Assembly (NCBI RefSeq): GCF_054482595.1
Contig: NZ_CM137008.1
Reading direction: 5' to 3' (one strand)
DNA: 64,000 nucleotides
Each line of letters begins with the position of its first letter. Position 1 is the first letter of the stretch. The translations under genes and the position numbers were made by a program. Under the pieces are notes generated by a model, which worked only from the letters and a program-made list of their open reading frames with translations, ran no database searches and had not been told where the DNA came from. Below are positions 2,182 to 52,595 of the stretch, piece after piece.

Positions 2182-2424
2182 TTATGCTCCTGTAGTGAAC
2201 AGATCTAACGCTTCCTTCGATTTACGCACCGCTTCGATAGTGCGGGTCGTGATATCTGAATTAGCGCCGCCTGACTGGAAGTGAATTTTGAATAGCTCAA
2301 GCTTCAACTCGTCAGTGCCAATGAACTGAAATGCTTCTTCTGCGGCTGCGTTCTGGTTCATGACCAGTTTGTAAATCTCTAACTGGAATTTCTGTTCTTC
2401 AGTCATGGGAATAATCTCTGCCAT
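2182..2424 (-). CDS. Hypothetical phage protein
   Basis: 80 aa ORF between lysis genes and terS; no recognised family. Confidence 0.3.
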   Translation of the reverse strand: MAEIIPMTEEQKFQLEIYKLVMNQNAAAEEAFQFIGTDELKLELFKIHFQSGGANSDITTRTIEAVRKSKEALDLFTTGA

Positions 2425-2571
2425 TGTTGGCTCCGTTTATCCGTTAAAAGGGATATCAGTTAAGTTATCCCGTGTAGGGTATAAGCCATTATCAAAGCCA
2501 CTCTGTAGGGAATGGCTTTTGTGATGGCAATAAAAAAGGCCGCCTAAGCGACCTTTCATTTTTCATCCGTT

Positions 2572-2790
2572 TTAATCATCTGGGTAATTAAGCGGCATCC
2601 AGTGTGTAACCTTGCTTGCTCCTGAATCGATGAATGCCTTGGTTCTCTGCCAGTAAGAGCCCATACATGATAGTTTGAACACGTCACCAGTATCAGTAAG
2701 AGCTATAACCTCTTTAGACCACATCCCTTCTTTGCTTTCTGGTAGCCGGTGTTCAACATTGATCCATTGGTTTCCGTTATCATCCATCAC
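2572..2790 (-). CDS. Small phage protein, DUF551-like
   Basis: 72 aa ORF ending ...VTHWMPLNYPDD, reminiscent of the DUF551 C-terminus. Confidence 0.35.
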   Translation of the reverse strand: MMDDNGNQWINVEHRLPESKEGMWSKEVIALTDTGDVFKLSCMGSYWQRTKAFIDSGASKVTHWMPLNYPDD

Positions 2791-3226
2791 AACCTCGTCT
2801 AGTTGTTCGTCATAGATTCAGTGGCTGGCGGTGACGATTCCGCTTTTCGGGAGCTACCCTAGCCACTGTTTTATTCTATCCGATGTCTTTCCATCAGTCC
2901 GCCACCACAAAGAATCTTTTTTGCCATAAGGCAGGAGGTTCATCTTTCAGTGGCTGCCAGTGTTATTTCCCCACCTACTGGCTTGGGTTGTTTCGCTGTA
3001 CTGCCGTAACTGGTTGCCCAGAATAAATTCCGGTTTCATTATCAAGCCCACCCGTAGATAGGCTTTGTAATGAACCGGCTCTTATCTCAACGCAGCCCCT
3101 TACCGCGCGCCAGATGCTCAATATCAAGCATCAGCAATGAGATGTTTAATCTGGATTCACTCCAGAAGTGATCACCACCCTGTCTACAGAGCCAGATGTG
3201 AAGGATGATGAGTAAAATTATCGCTA

Positions 3227-3664
3227 TCATCGAAGGCATTGCGTCCTGATGTATTCCTGCAGGTAGTCAACCTGCGCGGTTATCCTGTCGATTCCACTTC
3301 GGAGACGGTAATAATTGAGTTCAGCATCTGCTGTAAGTCTTGGGCTTTCTCCATTGCCCATGCCGCTGGCTCCGGTCGTTGACTTTGCACAGGTGGCGGC
3401 GACTTGCAGGCGCTTACGACCAGCAGAAACATCAGCACGGAGACTTTCGATAGTCGCGTTAGCATCAGCAAGCTCCTTTGTGTATCTGGCGTCAAGTTCT
3501 GCTACATCACGTTGACGCTTCTGCATGTCAGCGATTGTGGATGTGGCTTTATCACGTTGCTCTTTGTAGGCGATGGCGTTATCACGGTAATGATTAACAG
3601 CCCATGACAGGCAGACGATGATGCAGATAACCAGAGCGGAGATAATCGCGGTTACTCTGCTCAT
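3227..3664 (-). CDS. Rz: Rz i-spanin
   Basis: 145 aa ORF with N-terminal TM segment, directly after endolysin; contains embedded Rz1 frame. Confidence 0.75.
3280..3465 (-). CDS. Rz1: Rz1 o-spanin lipoprotein (embedded in Rz, alternate frame)
   Basis: Embedded ORF with lipobox LVVSAC and proline-rich [14 protein letters not shown] like lambda Rz1; start set at internal Met. Confidence 0.6.
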
Positions 3665-4137
3665 ACCTCAATCTCTCTGACCGTTCCGCCTGCTTCTTTG
3701 AATTTTGCAATCAGGTTGTCAGCCTTATGCTCGAACTGACCATAACCAGCACCCGGCAACGAAGCCCAGATATTGCTGCAACGGTCGATTGCCTGACGGA
3801 TGTCACCGCGATCAATCATCGGTAAAGCGCCACGCTCTTTAATCTGTTGCAATGCCACAGCGTCCTGGCTTTTGGGAGAGAAGTCTTTCAGGCCAAGTTG
3901 CTTGCGGTAGGCATCCCACCAACGTGAAAGAAGCTGGTAACGTCCGGCGGCTGTTGATTTGAGCTTTGGGTTTAGCGTGACACGTTTGCGAGGGTGATCG
4001 GAGTAATCAGTGAATAGCTCTCCGCCAACAATGACGTCATAACCATGATTTCTGGTTTTCTGACGTCCGTTATCAGTTCCCTCCGACCACGCCAGCATAT
4101 CGAGGAACGCCTTACGTTGATTATTGATTTCCACCAT
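3661..4137 (-). CDS. R: Endolysin R (lambda-type lytic transglycosylase)
   Basis: 158 aa; near-identical to recalled lambda R ([35 protein letters not shown]...). Confidence 0.9.
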
Positions 4138-4444
4138 CTTCTACTCCGGCTTTTTTAGCAGCGAAGCGTTTGATAAGCGAACCTATCGAGTCAGTACCGA
4201 TGTAGCCGATAAACACGCTCGTTATATAAGCGAGATTGCTACTTAGTCCGGCGAAGTCGAGAAGGTCACGAATGAACCAGGCGATAATGGCGCACATCGT
4301 TGCGTCGATTACTGTTTTTGTAAACGCACCGCCATTATATCTGCCGCGAAGGTACGCCATTGCAAACGCAAGGATTGCCCCGATGCCTTGTTCCTTTGCC
4401 GCGAGAATGGCGGCTAACAGGTCATGTTTTTCTGGCATCTTCAT
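4121..4444 (-). CDS. S: Holin S (lambda-type)
   Basis: 107 aa; matches recalled lambda S ([62 protein letters not shown]...). Confidence 0.9.
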
Positions 4445-4980: not shown

Positions 4981-5469
4981 CTATGCTACATGTTTAATTT
5001 TCTCTACACGTTTCCGGTTTTTAAACGCACTATCCAGAACTGGGTAAATCATAAACAACGAAGCATTGAGGATTTCGTCAACTTCCCGGCGACAGGTTGC
5101 GAGCGATGGTTTTTGAATACGCCCGCCGCCCCGGCATAACATCTTGCGAGGTCTTGCGACACGATGATAGTAAGATGCAATGGCATGCTTGGAAGATCCA
5201 TGAGCGTAGTAGCTGAGGAGGATGCCAAAGGCTTTCTTGTCAATGCACATGACGGAATCGACGACCTGAGAAATCAACATTCCATCATCATCATTACACA
5301 TTGGCCTTGTCATAACTCTTCCCGGCTCTACGCTCTCCATGAACTTCGCTATTACGCTGCTCATGCGCTTTTCCAGGCGACCTGAATAAACCCATGCGCC
5401 CCACAGTTCAAGCCAGCCATTCAGCCACTCGTGCTGTTCTTTGGTGAGGTTTAGTTCTCTTATGCTCAT
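4981..5469 (-). CDS. Q: Late-gene antiterminator Q-like (phage 21 Q-type)
   Basis: 162 aa ORF immediately downstream of ninH and upstream of the lysis cassette; Cys/His-rich; assignment mainly positional. Confidence 0.55.
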   Translation of the reverse strand: MSIRELNLTKEQHEWLNGWLELWGAWVYSGRLEKRMSSVIAKFMESVEPGRVMTRPMCNDDDGMLISQVVDSVMCIDKKAFGILLSYYAHGSSKHAIASYYHRVARPRKMLCRGGGRIQKPSLATCRREVDEILNASLFMIYPVLDSAFKNRKRVEKIKHVA

Positions 5470-21872: not shown

Positions 21873-21873
21873 C

Positions 21874-22554
21874 ATGAACAAGATTGACTATCAGGCACTG
21901 CGTGAGGCAGCAGAAAAAGCAACGTGTGGTGCGTGGTCGCTCGAATATGGAGAGGAGAGATTTGATGCTGGTGATGCGCTAATTCATCGTGAAGTTGTTG
22001 GATATCTTCCCATTTGCAGAATTGAAGGAGCGCATCCTGAAAGCGGTTTCGATGAAGATTTCCAAATGGAACAGCAGGCCAATGCTGAATTCATCGCCGC
22101 AGCCAATCCGGCTACCGTCTTGGCGCTGCTTGATGAACTGGAAGCCGCAGAGAAGCGTATCGCTGAATTGGAGTCACTGACTGTACCACAGTTACCGCAG
22201 CAAGCGGTGCCGGATGAAATGCCGGAGCCAGATACCGCGAGAATGTTCTTTACCGATGCAGTTGTGGCAATAGCTAAGGTTCAAGGCTGGAACGCCTGCC
22301 GCGCTGCCATGCTTCATAGTGCCGAACCTGTAAGCCAGGCTTACAAGTTGAACGCGCTGGATGGCAACTCTCCGGTAACTCCGGATGGTTGGGTTATGGT
22401 GCCGAAGGAGTTAACGCCGGAAATGATGAGAGCCGTTCAGATTAGAAGTGAGCTTGGAGGGTATGCCACTTCCAATCTATCTGGTGCATACAATATGTTT
22501 TCTGAGTTCTGGAATGTTGCTGTCTCAGCTGCGCCTAAGGTGGATGATTTATGA
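21874..22554 (+). CDS. Ead/Ea22-like protein
   Basis: 226 aa; N-terminal ALREAAEKAT.GAW...AAANPATVLALLDELEAAE resembles the Ead/Ea22 family. Confidence 0.45.
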   Translation: MNKIDYQALREAAEKATCGAWSLEYGEERFDAGDALIHREVVGYLPICRIEGAHPESGFDEDFQMEQQANAEFIAAANPATVLALLDELEAAEKRIAELESLTVPQLPQQAVPDEMPEPDTARMFFTDAVVAIAKVQGWNACRAAMLHSAEPVSQAYKLNALDGNSPVTPDGWVMVPKELTPEMMRAVQIRSELGGYATSNLSGAYNMFSEFWNVAVSAAPKVDDL

Positions 22555-50123: not shown

Positions 50124-50282
50124 CATTGGTGGGTCGTGCAGGATGACTCGCTTCGCTCGCCCTTCGGGCCGTCGCCGCGAGCGGCTCCGTTGTTTCGCTA
50201 CGCTCAACTCAAACCTGCTGCAGGTTCGAATCTTTGAGTATCGCAGATAGCAAAAAAGCGCCTTTAGGGCGCTTTTTTACAT

Positions 50283-50358
50283 TGGTGGGTCGTGCAGGAT
50301 TCGAACCTGCGACCAATTGATTAAAAGTCAACTGCTCTACCAACTGAGCTAACGACCC
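50283..50358 (-). tRNA. lysQ: tRNA-Lys (anticodon UUU)
   Basis: 76-nt exact reverse complement of recalled E. coli tRNA-Lys. Confidence 0.9.
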
Positions 50359-50391
50359 CTTGCGGGATTATGCTGCTTTAATCATTCAGGA

Positions 50392-50467
50392 TGGTGGGTC
50401 GTGCAGGATTCGAACCTGCGACCAATTGATTAAAAGTCAACTGCTCTACCAACTGAGCTAACGACCC
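50392..50467 (-). tRNA. lysZ: tRNA-Lys (anticodon UUU)
   Basis: 76-nt exact reverse complement of recalled E. coli tRNA-Lys. Confidence 0.9.
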
Positions 50468-50613
50468 ATACGGGTGTTACCTGAAAGATTTTTACTCGGG
50501 GCCAATCTTTAAGATTGGTGGGTCGTGCAGGATGACTCGCTTCGCTCGCCCTACGGGCCGTTGCTGGCGCAACGTTATCCTTCACGCTTAACATCTGAGT
50601 TTGATGTTAAAAT

Positions 50614-50689
50614 TGGTGGGTCGTGCAGGATTCGAACCTGCGACCAATTGATTAAAAGTCAACTGCTCTACCAACTGAGCTAACGACCC
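50614..50689 (-). tRNA. lysY: tRNA-Lys (anticodon UUU)
   Basis: 76-nt exact reverse complement of recalled E. coli tRNA-Lys. Confidence 0.9.
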
Positions 50690-50692
50690 GAG

Positions 50693-50768
50693 TGGTGGGT
50701 GATGACGGGATCGAACCGCCGACCCCCTCCTTGTAAGGGAGGTGCTCTCCCAGCTGAGCTAATCACCC
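50693..50768 (-). tRNA. valZ: tRNA-Val (anticodon UAC)
   Basis: 76-nt exact reverse complement of recalled E. coli tRNA-Val. Confidence 0.9.
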
Positions 50769-50819
50769 GATACTGCGCTGGATACTACAAACTACTTCCA
50801 CCGAACCCACCGTAATTAG

Positions 50820-50895
50820 TGGTGGGTCGTGCAGGATTCGAACCTGCGACCAATTGATTAAAAGTCAACTGCTCTACCAACTGAGCTAACGACCC
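50820..50895 (-). tRNA. lysW: tRNA-Lys (anticodon UUU)
   Basis: 76-nt exact reverse complement of recalled E. coli tRNA-Lys. Confidence 0.9.
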
Positions 50896-50897
50896 GG

Positions 50898-50973
50898 TGG
50901 TGGGTGATGACGGGATCGAACCGCCGACCCCCTCCTTGTAAGGGAGGTGCTCTCCCAGCTGAGCTAATCACCC
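50898..50973 (-). tRNA. valT: tRNA-Val (anticodon UAC)
   Basis: 76-nt exact reverse complement of recalled E. coli tRNA-Val. Confidence 0.9.
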
Positions 50974-51008
50974 GATACTTCGCTGGATACTACAACTAAC
51001 TAGGTTAG

Positions 51009-51084
51009 TGGTGGGTCGTGCAGGATTCGAACCTGCGACCAATTGATTAAAAGTCAACTGCTCTACCAACTGAGCTAACGACCC
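51009..51084 (-). tRNA. lysT: tRNA-Lys (anticodon UUU)
   Basis: 76-nt exact reverse complement of recalled E. coli tRNA-Lys. Confidence 0.9.
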
Positions 51085-51248: not shown

Positions 51249-52040
51249 TTACATCGCGTTCAGACGTTTTTGCGCCTGTTTAGCGCCATCAGTACCAGGG
51301 TATTTACTGATAACCTGCTGGTATACGGCTTTCGCTTTTGCGGTGTCACCTTTGTCCTGCATGATGACGCCGACTTTAAACATCGCATCTGCAGCCTTTG
51401 GTGACTTCGGATAGTTTTTCACTACCGAAGCAAAATAGTACGCCGCATCATCTTTTTTACCCTTGTTGTAGTTTAACTGACCCAGCCAATAATTGGCGTT
51501 TGGCAGGTAAGTTGAATCAGGGTAATTTTTGATGAAATTCTGAAATGCCACCATTGCGTCATCCTGGCGGGATTTATCCTGCACCAGCGCAATAGCTGCA
51601 TTGTAATCCGTGTTTGCATCACCGCTTTTCACCGGCGCGCCAGTATTCGCAGTACCAGCATCAGCTGTCGGCGTCGTTGATGCCGCCGCACCGCTTTGAT
51701 CACCGCTGGTTGATTGCGCCGCTGCACCACCGCTGCTGAGGCTGTCGATCTGCAACAGGATCTGCTTTTGCCGCTCCACGACCTGATTCAGTTGATACTG
51801 ATTTTCCTGAATCTGACCACGCAGGGAATCAATATCGGATTGATTATCAGAGAGTTGTTGCTGGAGTTGGGTTAAAAGCTGGCTGTGAGCATTAGAAATA
51901 CGCTCAAGTTGAGTGACGCGGTCTTCGACCGAGCCTGAGCCGACACTACTGATTGGTGCCTGAGCAAAAGCGGCCCAGGGGGCCGCTATACCAACCAGTA
52001 ACGACAGACTCAATAGTTGATGTCTGAAGTTACTGCTCAT
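51249..52040 (-). CDS. cpoB: Cell division coordinator CpoB (YbgF), TPR protein
   Basis: 263 aa with signal peptide and Gln-rich coiled coil. Confidence 0.9.
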   Translation of the reverse strand: MSSNFRHQLLSLSLLVGIAAPWAAFAQAPISSVGSGSVEDRVTQLERISNAHSQLLTQLQQQLSDNQSDIDSLRGQIQENQYQLNQVVERQKQILLQIDSLSSGGAAAQSTSGDQSGAAASTTPTADAGTANTGAPVKSGDANTDYNAAIALVQDKSRQDDAMVAFQNFIKNYPDSTYLPNANYWLGQLNYNKGKKDDAAYYFASVVKNYPKSPKAADAMFKVGVIMQDKGDTAKAKAVYQQVISKYPGTDGAKQAQKRLNAM

Positions 52041-52049
52041 GCAATTCTC

Positions 52050-52595
<546 letters not shown>

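What the first reader, a model, noticed from the sequence alone, without database searches (positions are those of the whole stretch)
2791..3226. ORF-poor, possibly decayed segment between the DUF551-like gene and Rz
About 440 bp with no ORF of 60 codons or more on either strand sits between tightly packed late genes and contains an 8-bp inverted repeat pair (CAGTGGCT…AGCCACTG) spanning ~35 bp. This may be a pseudogenised moron (lambda carries bor and lambdap78 near here) or a structured non-coding element.
Basis: seen in the sequence. Interest (0 to 1): 0.25.

Follow-up and report, generated by a model that had tools for sequence, protein, structure and literature searches.

The report
Known int-alpA RNA leader, not decay
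The apparently empty stretch between the lysis and DNA-packaging genes of this P22-like E. coli prophage is not decayed DNA: it holds a small conserved gene, a nearly invariant segment that yields a small RNA in phage P22, and a catalogued but functionally uncharacterised structured RNA (int-alpA) that probably controls translation of the next gene.

Summary
In detail: no ORF of 60 codons or more, and an 8-bp inverted repeat at 2819-2826/2861-2868. The repeat alone is within chance, since 17% of shuffles contain one.

All features lie on the minus strand, inside a P22-like late operon:
- **3087-3239:** an intact 50-codon gene (PHROG 11822, Sf6 gp65 family), annotated in relatives.
- **About 3064-3072:** an empty slot where relatives carry rha, GIY-YIG or KilA-N cassettes.
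- **2877-3007:** a nearly invariant segment shared with P22, HK97, ST64T and Sf6. It matches the core of the reported P22 small RNA "P22G".
- **2807-2869:** a match to Rfam RF02996 (int-alpA), 42 bits against a gathering score of 35.8.

Across 166 distinct int-alpA instances from phages and bacteria, the third-hairpin loop is complementary to two sites in the downstream leader. The second site overlaps the Shine-Dalgarno sequence and sits in a small hairpin loop. In the window this is the leader of the DUF551 gene.

The most likely function is translational control of the downstream gene; the trigger is unknown. The family is already known. The proposed loop pairing is a testable lead.

The parts
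2807..2869 (-). int-alpA RNA motif (Rfam RF02996), a three-way junction. P2 is 2857-2859 with 2849-2851 (loop 2852-2856). Junction GAAAA is 2844-2848. P3 is 2840-2843 with 2828-2831. The P3 loop (L3) is AAUCGUCA at 2832-2839.
   Evidence: cmscan gives 42.0 bits against a gathering score of 35.8, E 5.7e-7; the hit recurs. The MFE fold reproduces all three stems, z -3.3. P1 and P2 covary in 63 distinct homologues.
2807..2812 (-). D1: UGACGA, the first leader site complementary to L3 (6 bp). It is single-stranded and lies 6 nt after P1. Proposed pseudoknot partner or decoy.
   Evidence: Sequence. Family-wide co-variation of loop and site. H-type pseudoknot geometry.
2789..2806 (-). P4 hairpin: ACAAC at 2802-2806 paired with GUUGU at 2789-2793. 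Its loop presents D2 (GACGA, 2795-2799), the second L3-complementary site, which overlaps the Shine-Dalgarno GAGG (2793-2796).
   Evidence: Family-wide, the stem flanking D2 averages 5.13 bp against 3.97 +- 0.09 when permuted. D2 ends a median of 7 nt before the start codon.
2572..2787 (-). DUF551 gene, the gene served by the leader. Start is ATG 2785-2787; an alternative GTG is at 2788-2790.
   Evidence: Pfam PF04448 E 9.4e-10. RefSeq WP_000342560.1 in relatives.
2877..3007 (-). Nearly invariant ~130-nt segment shared with P22, HK97, ST64T, Sf6 and epsilon34. It is homologous to the core of the P22 small RNA 'P22G'. Homology with HK97, ST64T and BIS08P22 extends to 3072.
   Evidence: Found in 194 phage records at 89-99% identity. 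Alignment A3. P22G coordinates and sequence are in PMC13397905 Table 2. Fold z -2.6.
2871..2927 (-). Short ORF MAKKILCGGGLMERHRIE (18 codons plus TAA) inside the conserved segment, with no Shine-Dalgarno sequence. It stops 2 nt before P1. Its tail differs between phages, and in ST64T it is fused to the DUF2560 gene ('orf118').
2946..2962 (-). 17-nt copy (15/17 identical) of the 3' strand of P1 plus the adjoining junction (compare 2817-2833), lying inside the conserved segment. It could pair with the 5' strand of P1. Unexplained.
   Evidence: direct repeat D1; inverted pair I3. Not a family-wide feature.
3044..3065 (-). Hairpin AAGCCUA...UGGGCUU (7 bp including one G-U pair) 21 nt after the stop of the 50-codon ORF, with no U tract.
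   Evidence: Read from the sequence. Conserved in ST64T and BIS08P22. Not scored as a terminator.
3064..3072 (.). Mosaic joint, an empty cassette slot. Relatives carry rha (691 nt, flanked by a 9-nt direct repeat CATTACAAA), GIY-YIG nuclease or KilA-N cassettes here.
   Evidence: Pairwise BLAST joints. Annotations. 20 of 80 related loci have no cassette.
3087..3239 (-). 50-codon gene [22 protein letters not shown]... with a hydrophobic N-terminus. Its start overlaps the last 13 nt of Rz. Function unknown.
   Evidence: PHROG 11822, E 3.9e-38, full length. Annotated as WP_001139681.1, Sf6 gene 65 and epsilon34 gp67. Found in 473 viral contigs. Variable sites fall 10 at third, 5 at first and 0 at second codon positions.

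Best explanation
The stretch is an ordinary, intact mosaic spacer of a P22-like late operon, transcribed right to left from the Q-dependent late promoter. It is not a decayed gene. It contains a 50-codon conserved gene, an empty cassette slot, a nearly invariant segment that yields the small RNA P22G in phage P22, and an int-alpA RNA motif.

The motif plus the next 35 nt form the 5' leader of the DUF551 gene.

Proposed mechanism (inferred, not shown): the three-way junction presents the loop of its third hairpin (L3, AAUCGUCA). That loop can pair either with D1 (UGACGA), a single-stranded site just 3' of the junction, or with D2 (GACGA). Pairing with D1 would give an H-type pseudoknot and leave the ribosome-binding site free. 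D2 overlaps the Shine-Dalgarno GAGG and sits in the loop of a small hairpin immediately before the start codon. Pairing with D2 would be a loop-loop contact that masks the ribosome-binding site.

The element would therefore be an intercistronic translational control device for the downstream mobile-element gene. What shifts the balance is unknown. Candidates are ribosomes terminating just upstream of P1, free copies of the junction RNA, or a host factor or ligand bound by the invariant junction core.
For: SHOWN:
- Rfam RF02996 matches at 42.0 bits against a gathering score of 35.8.
- The MFE fold gives the same three stems, z -3.3.
- In 63 distinct homologues, 93% of P1/P2/P3 cells are paired. 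181 cells carry a change on both sides, against 66 +- 6 in shuffles. Slid controls give 33-49% paired.
- Ten instances from 8 loci retrieved by sequence pattern were independently confirmed as int-alpA at 46-67 bits.
- Loop-leader complementarity: in 166 distinct instances (112 distinct loops), 95% have a 5-mer complementary to L3 between P1 and the start codon, against 24 +- 3% with permuted loops. There is no signal upstream of P1, in the coding region, or for the P2 loop.
- 100 of the 166 have two or more sites of at least 5 nt, against a mean of 11.9 (maximum 22) when permuted.
- Positions are fixed. D1 starts a median of 16 nt after CCGCC, D1 to D2 is 7 nt, and D2 to the start codon is 7 nt.
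- D1 pairs with the 3'-justified part of the loop and leaves 2-4 nt at its 5' side, which is H-type pseudoknot geometry.
- A stem flanks D2: 5.13 bp against 3.97 +- 0.09 permuted.
- The motif is intercistronic. In 49% of 158 instances a same-strand ORF of 60 aa or more stops 0-20 nt before P1, against 5% at random positions.
- Context in the window is Q, holin, Rz/Rz1, gp3 and the large terminase, all on the minus strand. No minus-strand terminator or promoter was scored in the segment.

INFERRED: that L3:D2 pairing lowers translation, that D1 competes with D2, and the identity of the trigger.
Against: - There are no expression, probing or mutational data for any int-alpA RNA in the searchable literature. 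Rfam classifies it as an sRNA gene, not a cis-regulator.
- In the window the two pairings are short and nearly equal in stability: -7.5 kcal/mol for D1 and -7.1 for D2.
- The window copy has a U-to-A change in the otherwise 90%-conserved junction nucleotide after P3, and it scores 3 bits below the L001 variant.
- The window lacks the long upstream ORF that ends near P1 in half of the family. Only an 18-codon ORF without a Shine-Dalgarno sequence ends there.
- The high diversity of loops, with three-way matching, fits a specificity (trans-recognition) function at least as well as a purely cis switch.
- My family set was collected with a pattern that fixes the core and P3. It is therefore a biased subset, and P3 covariation could not be tested apart from one variant copy in L103.
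Confidence: 0.55

Rival explanations
1. c4/CI- or IsrK-like trans-acting RNA. The three-way junction is released from the operon transcript by processing, or by termination after P1 in some members, as a stable ~60-nt RNA. Its loop then pairs in trans with D1 and D2 on full-length transcripts of the same or a co-resident element. This represses translation of the downstream gene and gives element-specific 'immunity'. D1 in cis only neutralises the transcript's own loop.
For: - Rfam types the family as an sRNA.
- The topology matches the Rfam C4 model: a closing stem plus two hairpins, the second with a large variable loop.
- As with c4, the target overlaps the ribosome-binding site of the gene immediately downstream (review of Citron & Schuster 1990 in PMC12197685).
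- Loops are very diverse (112 loops in 166 instances) with three-way matching.
- Two copies in one contig carry different loops (L126, L103), as expected for orthogonal specificities.
- Some downstream genes are antirepressor-like: Bro-N, Rha and ANT.
- 21 of 158 members have a run of four or more T directly after P1, which would allow a short isoform as in IsrK (PMC4825925).
Against: - 87% of members, including the window copy, have no U tract after P1.
- No promoter was scored upstream in the window, and there is no family-wide promoter signal.
- No L3-complementary sites lie upstream, unlike c4 a1/b1 or P4 seqA.
- There is no match to the C4 or IsrK models, and ARAGORN finds no tRNA-like gene.
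- The pseudoknot geometry of L3:D1 fits a cis fold well.
Confidence: 0.25
2. A constitutive structural element with no switching. The three-way junction plus the L3:D1 pseudoknot would be an mRNA stability, processing or insulation module at the 5' end of a mobile gene cassette. D2 would resemble D1 only because both are Shine-Dalgarno-like or arose by local duplication.
For: - The motif travels with many unrelated downstream genes as a portable cassette 5' end.
- It begins right after upstream stop codons.
- D1 is the longer match in 55 cases against 10 and is transcribed first, so the pseudoknot should dominate.
Against: - D2 co-varies with L3 at positions outside the Shine-Dalgarno core, for example GACGA, UGAAGG, AAGGCA and UCACAG.
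- D2 is displayed in a hairpin loop with a covarying stem, which is hard to explain without an L3:D2 contact.
Confidence: 0.1
3. One reading: a pseudogenised moron or decayed segment.
For: - No ORF reaches 60 codons.
- An 18-codon ORF is cut short relative to ST64T orf118.
- There is a 57-nt deletion relative to Sf6 and L003 at 3022/3024.
Against: - The same arrangement is present at 93-99% identity in many functional phages, including HK97, ST64T, SEN22 and mEp234.
- Most phages also lack the 57 nt.
- The 50-codon ORF is intact and shows a third-position bias among variable sites.
- The short ORF is short in P22, HK97, epsilon34 and Sf6 too. The long ST64T form is a fusion with DUF2560.
Confidence: 0.03
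4. A chance inverted repeat, or a plus-strand intrinsic terminator (the stem is followed by TTTTATT on the plus strand), or a DNA-level recombination or boundary site.
For: - An 8-bp inverted repeat occurs in 17% of shuffles.
- TTTTATTC follows the repeat on the plus strand.
- Mosaic joints lie nearby at 2877-2882.
Against: - The covariance-model match is on the minus strand only.
- A 34-nt branched loop is not terminator-like, and the terminator scan did not score it.
- The loop-leader-SD complementarity is strand- and position-specific relative to a start codon, which is an RNA-level property.
Confidence: 0.03

Closest known systems
int-alpA RNA motif (Rfam RF02996; Weinberg et al. 2017, NAR 45:10811, PMC5737381)
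   Same: The window copy matches the model end to end (positions 1-71) above the gathering score. It has the same three stems and the same conserved junction nucleotides: CUAG, CGAAAAGCGG and CCGCC.
   Different: It lies upstream of a DUF551 gene in a phage late operon, not next to int or alpA. It has a U-to-A change after P3 and a 3-bp P2. The main text of the paper does not discuss the motif, and its supplement was not available. I therefore could not check whether the loop-leader pairing was noted. At consensus level, the 3' tail of the Rfam model (..auaAgGG) is complementary to the consensus loop (CCuU).
c4 antisense RNA of P1/P7 and CI RNA of P4 (Rfam RF01695, clan CL00128)
   Same: Both are small structured RNAs encoded in the same transcript, immediately upstream of the target. 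A hairpin-loop sequence is complementary to the ribosome-binding site of the next gene. The topology is the same: a closing stem plus two hairpins. Both occur in mobile elements, and L244 carries both.
   Different: There is no C4 model match in the window. int-alpA has one loop with two downstream sites, rather than two elements with upstream and downstream site pairs, and no upstream sites. The conserved core differs. RNase P processing and trans action are known for c4/CI (my own knowledge) but untested here.
IsrK of Gifsy-1 (PMC4825925)
   Same: A prophage RNA that is both a leader of an mRNA and, as a short isoform, a regulator of that mRNA's translation through alternative structures.
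   Different: IsrK activates translation, and its short form arises at a terminator. The window copy has no terminator after P1, and there is no Rfam IsrK match.
Pseudoknot switch of repZ (ColIb-P9) / repBA (Rfam PK-repZ, PK-repBA) and the MS2 coat-replicase long-range pairing (my own knowledge, not tested here)
   Same: An upstream hairpin loop pairs with a sequence at the ribosome-binding site of the downstream cistron. The outcome depends on ribosomes finishing an upstream ORF that ends close to the structure. This parallels stop codons lying 6-12 nt before P1.
   Different: In repZ the pseudoknot activates translation and is opposed by an antisense RNA. Here the paired site overlaps the SD, and a second decoy site exists.
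P22 sncRNA 'P22G' (PMC13397905, Table 2)
   Same: Window 2877-3007 aligns with P22 (AF217253) 21931-22063 at 94.7% identity, inside P22G (21873-22076). It has the same position downstream of the lysis/rha region.
   Different: P22G was defined only by small-RNA read coverage during infection and has no known function. In P22 it follows rha and is not followed by int-alpA.

Membership tests
int-alpA RNA (Rfam RF02996) | Covariance-model score at or above the curated gathering score (35.8 bits), full-length match | tested here: met
   42.0 bits, model positions 1-71 of 71, minus strand 2807-2869, E 5.7e-7. The hit recurs in a 92-kb search at E 3.7e-5.
int-alpA RNA (Rfam RF02996) | Three-stem junction (outer stem enclosing two hairpins) supported by covariation | tested here: met
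   The MFE fold gives P1, P2 and P3. In 63 distinct homologues 93% of cells are paired, 6 of 7 P1 pairs and both variable P2 pairs show double changes, and no shuffle out of 500 reaches the observed score. P3 was fixed by my search pattern and so was not testable there. One variant copy (L103, GUGU/GCAC) keeps the pairing.
int-alpA RNA (Rfam RF02996) | Conserved junction nucleotides CUAG / CGAAAAG / CCGCCUG | tested here: met
   The window has CUAG, CGAAAAGCGG and CCGCC-A-G. The single deviation is U to A after P3, at a column that is at least 90% T in 63 homologues.
int-alpA RNA (Rfam RF02996) | Neighbourhood of integrase or alpA genes (origin of the name) | tested here: not met
   The window copy precedes DUF551 in the late operon. 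Among 148 downstream proteins, only 4 are integrases and AlpA is not among the 25 most frequent families. HNH nucleases, Bro-N, Rha, DUF1376 and DUF551 are also found. This is a tendency, not a strict requirement of the Rfam model.
int-alpA RNA (Rfam RF02996) | Independent small RNA gene (Rfam type 'Gene; sRNA') | tested here: inconclusive
   No promoter or terminator was scored on the minus strand next to it. Only a weak -10-like TAGAAT lies at 2873-2878. 87% of members lack a U tract after P1, and half start 0-20 nt after an upstream stop codon. This points to a leader or intercistronic element, but processing into an sRNA is not excluded.
C4 antisense RNA (Rfam RF01695) | Match to the C4 covariance model | tested here: not met
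   No C4 hit in 2300-3700 even at E up to 10. The same search method finds C4 at 72.5 bits in L244.
C4 antisense RNA (Rfam RF01695) | Loop-complementary target sites both upstream (a1/b1, seqA) and downstream (a2/b2, seqC) of the RNA | tested here: not met
   Downstream sites are present (95% against 24% permuted). Upstream sites are absent (15% against 19% permuted).
C4 antisense RNA (Rfam RF01695) | Processing by RNase P to a stable trans-acting RNA | not testable with these tools
   ARAGORN finds no tRNA-like gene. No expression data are available.
Moron / pseudogenised moron | Own promoter and terminator flanking a coding remnant, with homology to an intact gene elsewhere | tested here: not met
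   No minus-strand promoter or terminator in the segment. No Pfam or PHROG match for the small ORFs other than the intact 50-codon gene. The DNA is collinear with intact phages.
Rho-independent terminator | GC-rich hairpin with a short loop, immediately followed by a U tract on the transcribed strand | tested here: not met
   The loop is 34 nt and branched. The minus-strand tail is AAUCUAU. The scan does not score it on either strand.
P22G sncRNA (PMC13397905) | Sequence homology to P22 21873-22076 | tested here: met
   94.7% identity over 131 nt, window 2877-3007. Accumulation as an RNA in this prophage was not tested.

The most novel reading that the evidence does not exclude
int-alpA would not be a free-standing sRNA gene. 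It would be a widespread, portable intercistronic translational regulator of mobile-element genes. A three-way junction presents a hypervariable loop that chooses between a decoy site (an H-type pseudoknot) and the Shine-Dalgarno site of the next gene (a loop-loop contact). The element is placed so that ribosomes finishing the upstream gene stop about 6-12 nt from its closing stem. This would make it either a device that couples translation of a cassette gene to the gene before it, or a c4-like, element-specific immunity RNA. I could not find this described, but I could not read the supplement of the 2017 discovery paper.
Probability: 0.4. Interest if true: 0.6.

Novelty: already known. Interest (0 to 1): 0.4.

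Why it matters
For this window the result is mainly a correction. The "gap" is not decayed DNA but three conserved functional-looking elements, none of which RefSeq annotates as RNA. The exact leader occurs in 46 of 5426 complete E. coli genomes.

More broadly, int-alpA is an orphan RNA family with no known function. Three observations here turn it into a directly testable hypothesis:
- Its third loop co-varies with two leader sites.
- The second of those sites is the ribosome-binding site of the downstream gene.
- The motif usually starts a few nucleotides after an upstream stop codon.

The hypothesis concerns how phages, satellites and islands control translation of accessory genes embedded in long operons. 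Those genes include HNH and GIY-YIG nucleases, antirepressor-like proteins and integrases.

The finding also places the recently reported P22 small RNA "P22G" in a nearly invariant segment shared by otherwise mosaic phages as different as P22 and HK97. That conservation argues that P22G is more than degradation debris.

Tried and rejected
- **Decayed gene.** DNA comparison with E. coli genomes and phages, plus Pfam and PHROG scans of every small ORF, showed intact collinear copies and no remnant. The only differences are the variable tail of the 18-codon ORF and a 57-nt indel that most phages also lack.
- **Terminator or promoter.** The consensus scan found nothing on the minus strand. Position-specific composition upstream of 171 motifs showed only weak A/T enrichment and no -35 element. 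Part of that enrichment probably comes from stop codons.
- **tRNA-like gene or att remnant.** ARAGORN found none.
- **C4, IsrK or another known RNA.** There were no Rfam matches at E up to 10 other than int-alpA.
- **Alternative pairing with the upstream copy of the P1 3' strand (2946-2962) as a general switch.** Rejected as a family feature: mean longest copy 5.23 nt against 4.94 permuted, driven by a few loci.
- **Upstream L3 target sites, as in c4.** Absent.
- **Terminator after P1 generating a short isoform.** Only 21 of 158 members have a run of four T, and the window copy does not.
- **Literature.** 'int-alpA' occurs in one paper, only as a Rfam scan hit in STEC genomes. The 2017 paper's main text does not discuss it and its supplement is not held. 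Searching the conserved core sequence in full texts returned only unrelated primers.
Full report
**Context.** All genes at the left end of the window are on the minus strand and form a P22-like late operon:

| Gene | Coordinates |
|---|---|
| Q antiterminator | 4981-5469 |
| Holin | 4121-4444 |
| Lysozyme | 3661-4137 |
| Rz | 3227-3664 |
| Rz1 | 3280-3465 |
| DUF551 | 2572-2787 |
| DUF2560 | 2182-2424 |
| gp3-type small terminase | 1614-2102 |
| Large terminase | 137-1636 |

The nearest relatives are E. coli prophages and Lederbergvirus phages such as Sf6, epsilon34, P22 and ST64T. The finding covers the 436 nt between DUF551 and Rz.

**Observation.** It is correct that no ORF reaches 60 codons. 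The perfect inverted repeat CAGTGGCT/AGCCACTG is at 2819-2826 and 2861-2868. On its own the repeat is unremarkable: 16.7% of dinucleotide shuffles of the segment contain an equivalent one.

**What the segment contains, from the Rz side.**

1. **3087-3239, minus strand: an intact 50-codon ORF.**
   - Its ATG overlaps the last 13 nt of Rz.
   - It matches PHROG 11822 over its full length (E 3.9e-38).
   - It is annotated as a protein in RefSeq prophages (WP_001139681.1), in Sf6 (gene 65) and in epsilon34 (gp67).
   - It occurs in 473 viral contigs.
   - Among 19 DNA versions, the 15 variable sites fall 10, 5 and 0 at codon positions 3, 1 and 2, as expected for a coding sequence.
2. **About 3064-3072: a mosaic joint.**
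   - Relatives carry a Rha gene here (691 nt, flanked by a 9-nt direct repeat), a GIY-YIG nuclease or a KilA-N protein.
   - In 20 of 80 related loci the slot is empty, as it is here.
3. **2877-3007 (to 3072 for some phages): a segment conserved at 89-99% identity in 194 phage records.**
   - These include P22, ST64T, Sf6, epsilon34 and the siphoviruses HK97 and mEp234/235.
   - About 100 nt are invariant across six phages.
   - The segment corresponds to the core of 'P22G', one of ten small RNAs recently reported from P22-infected Salmonella (P22 21873-22076, "downstream of ORF201, no known function"; PMC13397905).
   - It contains a short ORF (MAKKILCGGGLMERHR...) without a Shine-Dalgarno sequence. 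Its tail and length (18-37 codons) differ between phages, and in ST64T it is fused to DUF2560 as 'orf118'.
   - The segment folds somewhat better than shuffles (z -2.6). Its function is unknown.
4. **2807-2869, minus strand: a match to Rfam RF02996, the int-alpA RNA motif.**
   - The score is 42.0 bits against a gathering score of 35.8, over the full model length.
   - Energy minimisation independently gives the same three-way junction (z -3.3).

**Testing the structure.**
- I collected related sequences with a degenerate pattern of the conserved core, from viral contigs and from bacterial genomes.
- Ten hits in eight of these loci were confirmed as int-alpA by Rfam at 46-67 bits.
- In 63 distinct sequences, P1 and P2 are 89-100% paired.
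- 181 cells carry changes on both sides, against 66 +- 6 in shuffles. Slid controls give 33-49% paired.
- Identity as an int-alpA RNA is therefore secure.
- The window copy differs from the consensus by a 3-bp P2 and by a U-to-A change in the junction after P3.

**A lead on function.** The loop of the third hairpin (L3) varies greatly: 112 versions in 166 distinct instances. In nearly every case it is complementary to one or two sites in the leader between P1 and the next start codon.

- **Controls.** A complementary 5-mer is present in 95% of leaders against 24 +- 3% when loops are permuted. There is no excess upstream of P1 (15% against 19%), none in the coding region (17% against 18%), and none for the P2 loop (10% against 10%).
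- **Two sites.** 100 instances have two or more sites of at least 5 nt, against a mean of 11.9 (maximum 22) when permuted.
- **Fixed positions.** D1 begins a median of 16 nt after the CCGCC of P3. D2 follows 7 nt later and ends 7 nt before the start codon, which is the Shine-Dalgarno position.
- **D2 is displayed in a hairpin loop.** It is flanked by a short stem, P4, averaging 5.13 bp against 3.97 +- 0.09 permuted.
- **Pseudoknot geometry.** D1 pairs with the 3'-justified part of L3 and leaves 2-4 nt on the 5' side. That is the geometry of an H-type pseudoknot stacked on P3.
- **In the window.** L3 is AAUCGUCA (2832-2839). D1 is UGACGA (2807-2812). P4 pairs 2802-2806 with 2789-2793. D2 is GACGA (2795-2799) and overlaps the SD GAGG (2793-2796). 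The DUF551 start is ATG 2785-2787.
- **Duplex energies.** They are -7.5 kcal/mol for D1 and -7.1 for D2. In the L001 variant, changes in L3 and D1 shift this to -7.1 and -10.5.

**Family-wide context.**
- The downstream genes are diverse mobile-element genes: HNH-type nucleases (several families), AP2 and NUMOD3 modules, integrases, Bro-N, Rha, ANT, DUF1376, DUF6387 and DUF551. Most have no Pfam match.
- The motif is typically intercistronic. In 49% of 158 instances a same-strand ORF of 60 aa or more stops 0-20 nt before P1, with a peak at 6-12 nt, against 5% for random positions.
- Only 13% have a run of four or more T after P1. There is no clear upstream promoter signal.
- In the window the only ORF ending next to P1 is the 18-codon short ORF, which stops 2 nt before it. 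In the L001, L003 and BIS08P22 variants that ORF ends at the UAG of the conserved CUAG.

**Mechanism.** The anatomy is shown: a three-way junction, the complementarity of L3 to D1 and D2, the P4 hairpin, and the overlap with the SD. The rest is inferred.

- **Favoured model (confidence about 0.55).** This is a translational control leader. L3 either forms a pseudoknot with the decoy D1, leaving the SD free, or contacts D2 in the P4 loop and masks the SD.
- **Trigger.** Unknown. Candidates are ribosomes terminating just 5' of P1, free junction RNA, or a factor bound by the invariant core.
- **Main rival (about 0.25).** A c4/CI- or IsrK-like arrangement, in which the junction is released and acts in trans. 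The arguments for it are the shared topology with the Rfam C4 model, the extreme loop diversity, and different loops in two copies on one contig. The arguments against it are the lack of upstream sites, terminators and promoters.
- **Minor rivals.** A purely structural cassette boundary element, decay, a chance repeat, or a DNA site.

**Comparison with what is known.**
- The element is a member of a catalogued family (Weinberg et al. 2017), so it is not new as an object.
- I found no functional study. 'int-alpA' appears in one searchable paper, only as a scan hit in STEC genomes. The 2017 main text does not discuss it and the supplement is not held.
- I therefore cannot say whether the loop-leader pairing was noticed before. 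The 3' tail of the Rfam consensus (..AgGG) is complementary to its consensus loop (CCuU), so the seed alignment already includes D1.
- It is not a member of the C4 family: there is no model match, and there are no upstream sites.

**Verdict.**
- The object is already known as a family but functionally uncharacterised.
- Interest is moderate (0.4). It comes from the testable translational-control hypothesis and from the link to P22G, not from the locus itself.

Noticed in passing
window 2877-3007 (to 3072), minus strand: A nearly invariant ~130-nt segment is shared by otherwise mosaic phages (P22, ST64T, Sf6, epsilon34, HK97, mEp234/235). It equals the core of the reported P22 small RNA 'P22G'. 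It carries a short ORF without a Shine-Dalgarno sequence whose tail varies between phages. Its function is unknown.
   Followed up: partly
window 2946-2962 vs 2817-2833: A 17-nt direct repeat (15/17 identical): the 3' strand of int-alpA P1 plus the adjoining junction recurs 129 nt upstream, inside the conserved segment. It could pair with the 5' strand of P1 (8 bp). This is not a general feature of the family, and it is unexplained.
   Followed up: partly
family-wide (loci L007-L249): int-alpA motifs usually begin 6-12 nt after the stop codon of a co-directional upstream ORF (49% within 0-20 nt, against 5% at random positions). In 9 cases the upstream ORF's stop lies 10-20 nt inside the motif, which is where the UAG of the conserved CUAG would fall (the stop codons themselves were not inspected). 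This suggests coupling to upstream translation.
   Followed up: partly
L001/L003 vs window, leader 2795-2839: Two natural variants of the same leader differ at L3 position 2, at one D1 position and at the junction after P3. Predicted stability shifts from D1 slightly stronger than D2 (-7.5/-7.1 kcal/mol, window) to D2 much stronger than D1 (-10.5/-7.1, L001).
   Followed up: partly
L003 2123-2839 (E. coli OkiPb01715): The 691-nt rha cassette that fills the slot is flanked by a 9-nt direct repeat, CATTACAAA (window 3064-3072). This looks like microhomology or a target-site duplication at the mosaic joint.
   Followed up: no
L244 3715-3802 and 6466-6534; L103 3760-3831 and 4345-4414; L126 4107-4171 and 7804-7869: One bacterial island carries both a C4 antisense RNA and an int-alpA RNA. 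Two viral contigs carry two int-alpA copies each, with different loops and matching leader sites. The second L103 copy has a covarying P3 (GUGU/GCAC).
   Followed up: partly
L128 1347-1703 (ST64T orf-118): ST64T 'orf118' appears to be a fusion of the conserved short ORF (MAKKILCGGGLMERHR) with a DUF2560-like gene. It is not an independent gene family. P22, HK97 and epsilon34 have a stop after 27-28 codons.
   Followed up: partly
window 50127-51084 and 52011-52149, minus strand: Host chromosome: an array of seven tRNA genes with two RtT repeats, and the CpoB/ybgF thermometer (142 bits). The right part of the window is therefore core E. coli chromosome, not prophage.
   Followed up: no
window 3022/3024: A 57-nt insertion/deletion relative to Sf6, L003, JEP4 and IME10. 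Most other phages (HK97, ST64T, SEN22) lack the 57 nt, as the window does.
   Followed up: partly
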